Assembly (NCBI RefSeq): GCF_988242995.1
Contig: NZ_OZ547043.1
Reading direction: 5' to 3' (one strand)
Length of the DNA stretch: 64,000 nt
Positions 48,549 to 49,514 of the stretch are shown here, in pieces. Below the pieces are notes generated by a model that searched no databases, was not told the DNA's origin, and worked only from the letters and a program-made list of their open reading frames with translations. A program made the translations under genes and the position numbers. Numbering within the stretch: position 1 is the first letter of the stretch; each line of letters begins with the position of its first letter.

Positions 48549-49514
48549 ATGAAAAAGAATAAGTACTCAACTCCCTTATGGATGCTTGCCACGATTCTTG
48601 CGGGTATGCTCTCCCCTATGCAATCAGCGGTGAATGGTCAATTAGGTCACTGGTTACAGGATGGTAATGCATGCGCAGTTATCTCCTTTGCCAGTGGTTT
48701 AGTCGTGATGTTTTTTATTATTATGGCGCGAAAAGAAACCCGGCAACAATTTGCGGCAATTCCTTCTCTGATTAAAAACCGAAAAGTTCCTCTCTGGAAC
48801 TGGTTTGCCGGTCTCTGTGGAGCGATGGTGGTATTTTCTGAAGGCGCATCAGCCAGCGCACTCGGGGTCGCAACGTTTCAAACCGCACTGATCTCCGCGC
48901 TATTGCTGTCTGGTTTACTTTGCGATCGCTTTGGTATCGGTGTCGACGAGAAAAAATACTTTACCCCTTATCGCATCATCGGTGCATTATTTGCGGTTAT
49001 TGCTACGATTTTTGTTGTGTCACCTCAGTGGCATTCTACCTCTTTCATCTTACTTGCCATTCTTCCGTTCTTAGCTGGTTTGCTTGCAGGATGGCAGCCC
49101 GCTGGAAATGCAAAAGTAGCTGAAGCTACGGGATCCATGCTGGTTTCAATCACCTAGAATTTCATCGTTGGATTTTGTGTTTTAGGCACAGCGCTAGCTA
49201 TTCGTGTCGCATTAGGGCACGTCACTGTTCAATTACCAGATGTCTGGTGGATGTATCTTGGCGGCCCGCTTGGACTAATGTCTATCGGTTTAATGGCCAT
49301 TTTGGTCAGAGGTCTGGGGTTACTGATGCTGGGGGTTGCTTCAACGGCGGGCCAGTTACTGGGATCAGTATTGATTGACGTATTAATTCCATCGCTGGGC
49401 AATAGCGTTTATCTGGTCACGATCATCGGAACACTGTTTGCACTGGTCGGTGCAATTGTTACCACTATTCCGGAATACAGAACCTCGAAAACAATGAAGA
49501 AAATGGAGGTATAA
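48549..49514 (+). pseudogene. DUF606/YdcZ-type (DMT superfamily) membrane transporter gene interrupted by a single in-frame TAG
   Basis: ORFs 48549-49157 and 49251-49514 are in the same frame; reading through the TAG at 49158-49160 gives one continuous ~320-aa 10-TM protein. Confidence 0.75.

What the first reader, a model, noticed from the sequence alone, without database searches (positions are those of the whole stretch)
49158..49160. Single in-frame amber codon inside the DUF606 transporter gene
Both halves of the transporter are in the same frame and are separated only by TAG. Reading through gives a continuous 10-TM protein (...GSMLVSIT*NFIVGFCVLGTALAIR...). This is either a recent nonsense mutation or a gene expressed only with amber suppression. 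The same one-stop pattern recurs in the asnT integrase (TAG) and the ISL3 transposase (TAA), pointing to ongoing decay of accessory genes.
Basis: seen in the sequence. Interest (0 to 1): 0.4.

Follow-up and report, generated by a model that had tools for sequence, protein, structure and literature searches.

The report
Common nonsense allele in E. coli transporter
A single G-to-A change turns an invariant tryptophan codon into a stop in an accessory E. coli membrane-transporter gene; it is an ordinary pseudogene allele, already flagged in public annotation and shared by about 600 sequenced strains.

Summary
The in-frame amber codon is real, but it lies at window 49155..49157, one codon before the coordinates given. 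It interrupts a 321-codon gene (48549..49514) for a fused two-domain DMT_YdcZ/DUF606 transporter. Intact E. coli alleles have TGG (Trp203) there, so the lesion is one G>A transition at 49156. Trp203 is invariant in 18 full-length orthologues of 63-93% identity from enterobacteria, Bifidobacterium and lactobacilli. NCBI's PGAP pipeline already marks the same allele 'pseudo, internal stop'.

It is not a private mutation. 599 of 2,038 locus-carrying E. coli records have exactly this allele, on one shared upstream haplotype, next to at least three flanking core backgrounds.

The stop lies about 35 residues into the second repeat, not at the repeat junction, and no usable restart signal follows. 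So this is not a naturally split gene.

The suppressor-tRNA idea finds no support. supE-type genes turn up only in laboratory-type strains, no supF-type gene was found, and serU in the window is wild type.

The four-gene cluster carries at least seven other lesions among 16 sequences. The integrase is also truncated by IS1, and the ISL3 stop is older and widely shared.

Verdict: ordinary, already known, low interest.

The parts
48549..49514 (+). Full reading frame of the two-domain DMT_YdcZ (DUF606) transporter gene, a pseudogene here: 321 codons plus the terminal TAA at 49512..49514.
   Evidence: Translation. Two PF04657 domains in the intact orthologue. PGAP annotates 'DMT family transporter, pseudo, internal stop' in strains with an identical gene sequence and intact 321-aa proteins in others.
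49155..49157 (+). Premature amber codon TAG (Trp203 to stop). The mutated base is 49156 (G>A).
   Evidence: TGG in U14A, SMS-3-5 and EC10. Trp is invariant in 18 orthologues.
48549..49154 (+). Truncated ORF of 202 aa: the complete first YdcZ repeat (TM1-5), TM6 and the first residues of TM7.
   Evidence: The same 202-aa product is called in many public assemblies (P0114, 685 member sequences).
49158..49511 (+). Orphaned 3' part of the gene (codons 204-321, TM7-10 of the second repeat). It is still an open frame and has no convincing restart signal. The first in-frame ATG is at 49251; only CTGGTGG abuts it.
46506..47720 (+). First gene of the cluster: a fusion of a DeoR-type HTH domain and a PfkB (ribokinase-like) kinase. 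Intact in the window.
47734..48492 (+). GATase1_like (PF07090) protein, the conserved neighbour of the transporter. Intact in the window.
49517..50551 (+). Phosphotriesterase-related (PF02126) gene immediately downstream. Intact, with its own GGAGG at 49505..49509, 7 nt before the ATG.

Best explanation
This is an ordinary loss-of-function nonsense allele of an accessory E. coli transporter gene. A single G>A transition at window 49156 changed the invariant Trp203 codon (TGG) to amber (TAG).

Shown: the mutation, its single-haplotype origin, its wide distribution, and the position of the stop inside the second of two YdcZ repeats.

Inferred: release factor 1 terminates translation at codon 203. 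That gives a 202-residue fragment with TM1-6 that lacks TM7-10. Fused DUF606 proteins are thought to need both oppositely oriented five-helix repeats, so the fragment should be inactive and the conserved four-gene cluster loses its permease. The downstream phosphotriesterase-like gene keeps its own Shine-Dalgarno sequence and can still be translated.

The allele arose once and then spread by descent and recombination. The whole cluster appears to be under relaxed selection in E. coli.
For: TGG>TAG is the only difference in a 91-nt alignment with three intact alleles. PGAP marks the gene 'internal stop' in all seven annotated comparison strains that carry the allele and in CEA601S.

The intact protein has two PF04657 domains, 10-154 and 169-303, so codon 203 is inside repeat 2. 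Hydropathy puts it at the start of TM7. Trp203 lies in the motif TGSMLVSITWNFIVGF, it is invariant in 18 full-length orthologues of 63-93% identity, and the region after it is strongly conserved. All homologues listed are single chains of about 315-335 aa, apart from fragments.

Allele counts: 599 exact TAG 61-mers and 1,428 exact TGG 61-mers among 2,038 records. All 8 sampled TAG alleles share one upstream haplotype, including a T at 49025 seen only with TAG.

The cluster carries seven other lesions among 16 sequences: a PfkB stop at codon 81, two PfkB 1-bp deletions, a GATase 1-bp deletion, two IS insertions and a truncated phosphotriesterase gene. The GATase1_like + YdcZ pair, or the full four-gene cluster, is conserved in Bifidobacterium and Klebsiella, so the permease is an integral part of the cluster.
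Against: No expression or transport data exist here, so loss of function is inferred and not shown. The 118 codons after the stop are still open and carry no further lesion in any of the 8 TAG alleles sampled. That is expected for a young pseudogene but also fits continued use. The allele's high frequency (29% of locus carriers in a biased genome sample) is higher than expected for a plainly deleterious mutation. Low-level UAG read-through of enterobacterial pseudogenes has been documented (PMC9122581).
Confidence: 0.9

Rival explanations
1. Leaky 'pseudo-pseudogene'. Near-cognate tRNAs (mostly Gln) read through the UAG at low frequency, so a small and possibly cell-to-cell variable amount of full-length transporter is made, and the allele acts as an expression-lowering variant.
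For: Feng et al. 2022 (PMC9122581) found read-through of Salmonella pseudogene stops to involve mainly UAG, with C enriched at -1 and A at +5. Here the context is C-UAG-AA, which matches at -1 and +5. The downstream frame is intact in all sampled TAG alleles, and the allele is common.
Against: The +4 base is A, not the C favoured in that study. Trp203 is invariant across orthologues of 63-93% identity, so inserting Gln may not give an active protein. Half of the sampled TAG strains have further lesions in the cluster, which argues against selection to keep it working. No read-through-stimulating feature was identified.
Confidence: 0.06
2. The gene depends on a suppressor: the host carries an amber-suppressor tRNA, so the gene is normally expressed.
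For: None was found.
Against: A supE44-type glnV occurs in only 155 of 5,423 records, and all 40 listed carry laboratory-type designations (C600, DH5alpha, DH1, J53, K-12 / O16:H48 labels and similar). MG1655 lacks the cluster at this site. No exact supF-type tyrT exists in any of 5,441 records, including TAG carrier 720632. serU, the supD locus, lies in the window with its wild-type CGA anticodon. Other suppressor loci (leuX, trpT, tyrU, glnX) in the unknown source genome could not be checked.
Confidence: 0.01
3. Functional split or half-transporter. The 202-aa N-terminal product, with or without a restarted C-terminal piece, works like the naturally single-domain or paired-gene members of DUF606.
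For: The DUF606 family does contain homodimeric single-domain, paired heterodimeric and fused members (Lolkema 2008, as summarised in PMC3962082). The first repeat (residues 10-154) is complete in the truncated product.
Against: The break is 35 residues into repeat 2, not at the junction. The first in-frame ATG after the stop is 49251, which would give only 87 aa (TM8-10), and it has no properly spaced Shine-Dalgarno. All orthologues are fused. In repeat 1 all 13 Lys/Arg sit in the N-terminus and in loops 2-3 and 4-5, with none in the alternate loops. That implies one fixed orientation, which could not form the antiparallel homodimer the fold is thought to need (inference).
Confidence: 0.02
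4. Selected gene loss. The same nonsense allele, but inactivating the permease (and the cluster) is advantageous in some niches, which explains its frequency and the many independent lesions.
For: 599 carriers, spread across at least three flanking backgrounds, and eight distinct lesions in the cluster among 16 sequences.
Against: The genome collection is heavily biased toward clinical clones. Hitch-hiking and neutral decay of an accessory island flanked by IS remnants explain the same data. There was no test of selection.
Confidence: 0.15

Closest known systems
PGAP-annotated pseudogene 'DMT family transporter, internal stop' (e.g. ACAZ81_RS11510 in E. coli CEA601S, CXX37_RS00995 in strain 720632, ECRM13516_RS33285 in O145:H28 RM13516)
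   Same: Same gene, same position after cobU, same TAG at codon 203. The DMT gene sequence is identical to the window's.
   Different: Nothing at the gene level. The window's strain is not in the collection: it differs from CEA601S at 16 of 24,001 bases and in the asnT region.
Intact E. coli alleles WP_000739817.1 (Nissle 1917, U14A) and WP_000739816.1 (S88, SMS-3-5, O177:H21)
   Same: The same 321-codon gene in the same four-gene cluster, with 3-9 nucleotide differences over 966 bp.
   Different: They have TGG (Trp) at codon 203.
Fused two-domain members of the DUF606 / DMT_YdcZ family (PF04657; Lolkema et al. 2008)
   Same: Two tandem PF04657 repeats in one chain. The positive-charge distribution fits oppositely oriented repeats (inference).
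   Different: Here the second repeat is cut by a stop. The family's naturally split members are separate genes that break between the repeats, which is not the case here.
Salmonella 'pseudo-pseudogenes' (Feng et al. 2022, PMC9122581)
   Same: An enterobacterial gene with a G>A-derived UAG and a C at -1. Low-level read-through is conceivable.
   Different: No protein evidence exists for this gene. The +4 base differs from the favoured C. Membership cannot be claimed without proteomics.

Membership tests
DMT_YdcZ / DUF606 fused two-domain transporter | Two tandem PF04657 domains in one polypeptide | tested here: met
   Pfam scan of the intact allele: residues 10-154 (E 3.7e-30) and 169-303 (E 1.3e-15). 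The window sequence is the same apart from codon 203.
DMT_YdcZ / DUF606 fused two-domain transporter | About 10 transmembrane helices, 5+5, with the repeats in opposite orientation | tested here: inconclusive
   A simple hydropathy scan shows hydrophobic segments throughout, and the K/R distribution fits an N-in/C-in 5+5 topology. No topology predictor or structure was run, and no PDB relative exists by sequence.
DMT_YdcZ / DUF606 fused two-domain transporter | Transport activity | not testable with these tools
   No substrate is known. NCBIfam has no model for this protein.
Nonsense (premature-stop) pseudogene | Close orthologues are intact and have a sense codon at the site | tested here: met
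   TGG in intact E. coli alleles. Trp in 18 orthologues.
Nonsense (premature-stop) pseudogene | The stop removes a conserved, required part of the protein | tested here: met
   The stop is 35 residues into repeat 2. Residues 204-308 are highly conserved.
Nonsense (premature-stop) pseudogene | No functional full-length product is made | not testable with these tools
   Needs proteomics or a reporter fusion.
Programmed stop-codon read-through or suppressor-dependent gene | The stop codon is conserved among orthologues | tested here: not met
   The stop is confined to one E. coli haplotype. 1,428 of 2,038 records and all other genera have Trp.
Programmed stop-codon read-through or suppressor-dependent gene | A cognate suppressor tRNA is present in carriers | tested here: not met
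   supE-type was found only in laboratory-type strains, supF-type in none, and serU in the window is wild type. Other suppressor loci were not examined.
Naturally split DUF606 gene pair | Break at the repeat junction, with an RBS and start codon for the second gene, and split orthologues | tested here: not met
   The break is inside repeat 2. The next in-frame ATG is 31 codons downstream and lacks a spaced SD. All orthologues are fused.

The most novel reading that the evidence does not exclude
The amber allele is not dead but is a widespread low-expression variant. Near-cognate read-through of C-UAG-AA yields a trickle of full-length (probably W203Q) transporter, which would explain why the 3' 118 codons remain open in every sampled carrier and why the allele reaches about 29% of locus-carrying genomes.
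Probability: 0.06. Interest if true: 0.3.

Novelty: already known. Interest (0 to 1): 0.07.

Why it matters
It matters little beyond correct annotation. The gene should be treated as a pseudogene allele (W203*) of an uncharacterised accessory permease. It is not evidence of recoding or of natural amber suppression. The modest value is as a clean population marker: a single-origin nonsense allele that has spread across several chromosomal backgrounds. It also shows that this cobU-adjacent four-gene cluster (DeoR-PfkB, GATase1_like, YdcZ permease, phosphotriesterase-like) is being lost piecemeal in E. coli while it stays conserved in other genera.

Tried and rejected
1. Sequencing error: rejected, because 599 independent complete genomes carry the identical 61-mer.
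2. Naturally split gene: rejected.
3. Suppressor tRNA: supE-type and supF-type searches, plus serU in the window, gave no support.
4. Rho-dependent polarity on the downstream phosphotriesterase gene: the 359-nt untranslated stretch is G-rich (C/G below 1 in all but one of the 15 scanned 78-nt windows), so there is no obvious rut site. Left undecided.
5. The promoter and terminator consensus scan of the cluster was no better than shuffled sequence and was not used.
6. No solved structure is related by sequence, and no NCBIfam model matches the transporter or the GATase-like protein.
7. I first took CEA601S to be the window's own record. That was wrong: extrapolated coordinates for the asnT region gave fyuA and yeeJ-like genes. 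A direct comparison showed 16 differences over 24 kb. CEA601S is only the closest record for the island.
8. A test for purifying selection on the 3' part within the TAG lineage was not possible. The 8 sampled TAG alleles have no private substitutions in the gene; only two sites, 49405 and 49482, differ, in a pattern that looks recombinant.

Full report
**Observation**

The window contains one in-frame TAG inside a transporter gene, at 49155..49157. The coordinates in the finding (49158..49160) are the following AAT codon, so they are off by one codon. The ORF 48549..49157 encodes 202 aa. The same frame continues without a stop for 118 more codons to TAA at 49512..49514.

**What the gene is**

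The read-through product, taken from an intact allele, matches two tandem Pfam DMT_YdcZ (PF04657, formerly DUF606) domains at residues 10-154 and 169-303. It is the third gene of a four-gene cluster on the + strand:
- a DeoR-HTH/PfkB kinase fusion, 46506..47720
- a GATase1_like protein, 47734..48492
- the transporter, 48549..49514
- a phosphotriesterase-related protein, 49517..50551

The cluster lies in an IS-ridden island just after cobU. K-12 MG1655 has the CP4-44 cryptic prophage at that position and no such cluster there. About 39% of complete E. coli genomes (2,123 of 5,426) carry the locus.

**Nature of the lesion**

Aligned with three intact E. coli alleles, the only difference around the site is TAG versus TGG. 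That is one G>A transition at 49156, Trp203 to amber. In strains whose gene sequence is identical to the window's, NCBI's PGAP annotates 'DMT family transporter, pseudo, internal stop' (720632, O145:H28 RM13516, S1-CAM-02-A, 258E, UMNK88, CEA601S). The other sampled TAG carriers, FDAARGOS_448 and E21, are flagged the same way. In TGG strains it annotates intact 321-aa proteins (U14A, SMS-3-5, EC10, Nissle 1917, MRE162, O177:H21, EC05, S88).

Outside E. coli, homologues in Citrobacter, Salmonella, Klebsiella, Pectobacterium, Proteus, Anaerobiospirillum, Bifidobacterium and several lactobacilli are all single chains of about 315-335 aa. In an alignment of 18 full-length orthologues (63-93% identity), Trp203 is invariant within the motif TGSMLVSITWNFIVGF, and the sequence downstream is strongly conserved.

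**Is it a natural split?**

DUF606 includes single-domain homodimeric, paired-gene heterodimeric and fused members (Lolkema et al. 2008, as summarised in PMC3962082). It is not met here:
- The stop is about 35 residues into the second repeat, at the start of TM7 by hydropathy, not at the repeat junction.
- The first in-frame ATG after it is 49251. It would give only 87 aa, and its only purine-rich upstream element abuts it directly.
- Every orthologue is fused.
- In the first repeat, all 13 Lys/Arg residues lie in the N-terminus and in loops 2-3 and 4-5, with none in the alternate loops. I infer that the fragment has one fixed orientation and could not replace the missing, oppositely oriented repeat by homodimerising.

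**How widespread and how old**

I searched with 61-nt probes centred on the site. They gave 599 records with the exact TAG version and 1,428 with the exact TGG version, out of 2,038; the other 11 have another difference in the probe. Listed carriers come from humans, poultry, a frog and wastewater, and a porcine isolate was also sampled. They include an O145:H28 strain (RM13516) and UMNK88, from porcine neonatal diarrhoea.

In a 2,003-bp comparison (transporter plus phosphotriesterase gene) of the window and 14 loci, all 8 TAG alleles share one upstream haplotype. It includes a T at 49025 found only with TAG. Two different backgrounds follow from 49405 onward. This points to one mutational origin followed by recombination.

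The adjacent core genes ldtA-cobT-cobS-cobU fall into three haplotypes among TAG carriers:
- the window
- RM13516 = UMNK88 = 720632
- FDAARGOS_448, which is K-12-like

These differ by 54-79 SNPs in 3,374 bp. The transporter-phosphotriesterase segment differs by only 1-6 SNPs between the same strains. So the allele is not recent in the sense of strain-private. The RefSeq sample is biased, so 29% is not a population frequency.

**Suppression**

- A glnV sequence with the supE44 anticodon (CUA) matches exactly in only 155 records. All 40 listed carry laboratory-type designations: K-12 / O16:H48 labels, named cloning or recipient strains such as C600, DH5alpha, DH1 and J53, or 4.5-4.8 Mb records with laboratory or unstated sources. 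MG1655 lacks the cluster at this site.
- A supF-type tyrT has no exact match in any of 5,441 records. TAG carrier 720632 shows the wild-type one-mismatch hit.
- The supD locus serU is in the window (25545..25634, minus strand) with its wild-type CGA anticodon.

Dependence on a suppressor tRNA is therefore very unlikely, although other suppressor loci in the unknown source genome could not be checked.

Low-level near-cognate read-through cannot be excluded. In Salmonella pseudogenes, read-through mostly involved UAG, usually inserted Gln, and favoured C at -1 and +4 and A at +5 (PMC9122581). Here the context is C-UAG-AA. Gln at an invariant Trp may well be inactive.

**Decay of the neighbourhood**

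Among 16 sequences (the window plus 15 strains), the cluster shows seven other lesions:
- a PfkB stop at codon 81 (EC10, MRE162, EC05)
- a PfkB 1-bp deletion at 46886 and a GATase 1-bp deletion at 47850 (both in FDAARGOS_448 and E21)
- a PfkB 1-bp deletion at 46754 (258E only, so it could be an assembly error)
- an IS inside the GATase gene (O177:H21)
- an IS between the GATase and transporter genes (UMNK88)
- a phosphotriesterase gene truncated by an IS3-family element (E21)

Half of the TAG strains and half of the TGG strains carry such extra lesions, so the whole cluster appears to be under relaxed selection in E. coli. By contrast, the GATase1_like + YdcZ pair is conserved in Bifidobacterium, and the full cluster is conserved in Klebsiella.

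- The ISL3 transposase has one TAA at 51203..51205. PGAP flags the gene 'internal stop' in the strains that keep it as one gene, whichever transporter allele they carry. It is therefore probably older than the transporter stop, though I did not check that the stop codon is the same one in each strain.
- The asnT-adjacent integrase has TAG at 27392..27394. It is also cut short at about 27748 by an IS1 at 27759..28456. The best-matching record, HCP17S3_I4, has a 1,263-bp integrase pseudogene with an internal stop next to an IS1A.

**Mechanism**

Shown: one base change creates a stop inside the second repeat.

Inferred: RF1 terminates translation and a 202-aa fragment with six helices results. 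The 5+5 antiparallel fold cannot form, so transport is lost. The downstream gene has its own GGAGG at 49505..49509, 7 nt before its ATG, and can be translated independently. The 359-nt stretch left untranslated is G-rich, not C-rich, so strong Rho-dependent polarity is not predicted. This remains untested.

**Provenance caveat**

The island part of the window (42000..64000) differs from E. coli CEA601S (NZ_CP166713.1) at only two positions, but ldtA/cobT differ at 14 more. The asnT region is organised differently: at the corresponding coordinates CEA601S has fyuA and an inverse-autotransporter gene. No complete genome in the collection matches the window throughout, so the source strain is not identified.

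**Verdict**

This is a real, correctly spotted in-frame amber codon, and an ordinary one: a single-origin, widely distributed nonsense allele (W203*) that public annotation already flags as a pseudogene. It is already known and of low interest.

Noticed in passing
window 50963..52582 (-), stop at 51203..51205: The ISL3-family transposase has a single internal TAA at codon 460. PGAP flags the gene 'internal stop' in every compared strain that keeps it as one gene, with either transporter allele, so this lesion probably predates the transporter's amber codon. I did not verify that the stop codon is the same one in each strain.
   Followed up: partly
window 26771..27748 (+) and 27759..28456 (-): The asnT-adjacent tyrosine integrase has an in-frame TAG at 27392..27394 and is also truncated at its 3' end by an IS1 element. 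It is therefore not a simple one-stop pseudogene. The closest record (HCP17S3_I4) has a full-length 1,263-bp integrase pseudogene beside an IS1A.
   Followed up: partly
window 46506..50551 versus loci L001-L016: Other E. coli strains carry seven other lesions in the same four-gene cluster: a PfkB stop at codon 81, 1-bp deletions at positions equivalent to 46754, 46886 and 47850, two IS insertions, and a truncated phosphotriesterase gene. The whole cluster is decaying, not just the transporter.
   Followed up: yes
window 39636..43009 versus L022-L025, L017: O145:H28 RM13516, UMNK88 (porcine neonatal diarrhoea) and the Pakistani stool isolate 720632 have identical ldtA-cobTSU sequences (0 SNPs in 3,374 bp). 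The window and FDAARGOS_448 differ from them by 54 and 79 SNPs. This suggests that a large block including the island has been exchanged between lineages.
   Followed up: partly
window 1..64000 versus NZ_CP166713.1: The window is a mosaic relative to every complete genome searched. Positions 42000..64000 are nearly identical to CEA601S (2 differences), but ldtA/cobT differ at 14 sites, and the asnT region lacks the fyuA and inverse-autotransporter genes that CEA601S has at the corresponding coordinates. The source strain is not in the collection.
   Followed up: partly
window 50559..50585: A perfect 12-bp GC-rich hairpin (ATCCCCCGGCGC AAT GCGCCGGGGGAT) lies 8 nt after the phosphotriesterase stop codon. 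It sits between that gene and a gamma-glutamyltransferase fragment on the other strand (about 50591..50883). It is probably a terminator or REP-like element.
   Followed up: no
L018 4061..7223 (Bifidobacterium sp. ESL0790): In Bifidobacterium the GATase1_like + YdcZ pair sits between a LacI-type regulator and a CBAH (choloylglycine hydrolase family) gene. The kinase and phosphotriesterase genes are absent. This suggests that the GATase-like protein and the permease form the conserved functional core. The substrate is unknown.
   Followed up: no
L020 2384..4173 (Klebsiella-type cluster carrying P0021): One of the two contigs carrying the Klebsiella-type cluster (P0021) has no called gene where the DeoR-PfkB gene lies in the other (L021 2942..4150). 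It may be a pseudogene there too. Both clusters sit next to a relaxase/NikA pair, so the cluster appears to travel on a mobile element.
   Followed up: no
window 44997..46130 (-): An intact IS110-family ISEc45 transposase is inserted in the IS66 remnant upstream of the cluster. CEA601S and S1-CAM-02-A share this insertion, while 720632, RM13516 and S88 lack it. It is a recent insertion that marks a sub-lineage of the island.
   Followed up: no
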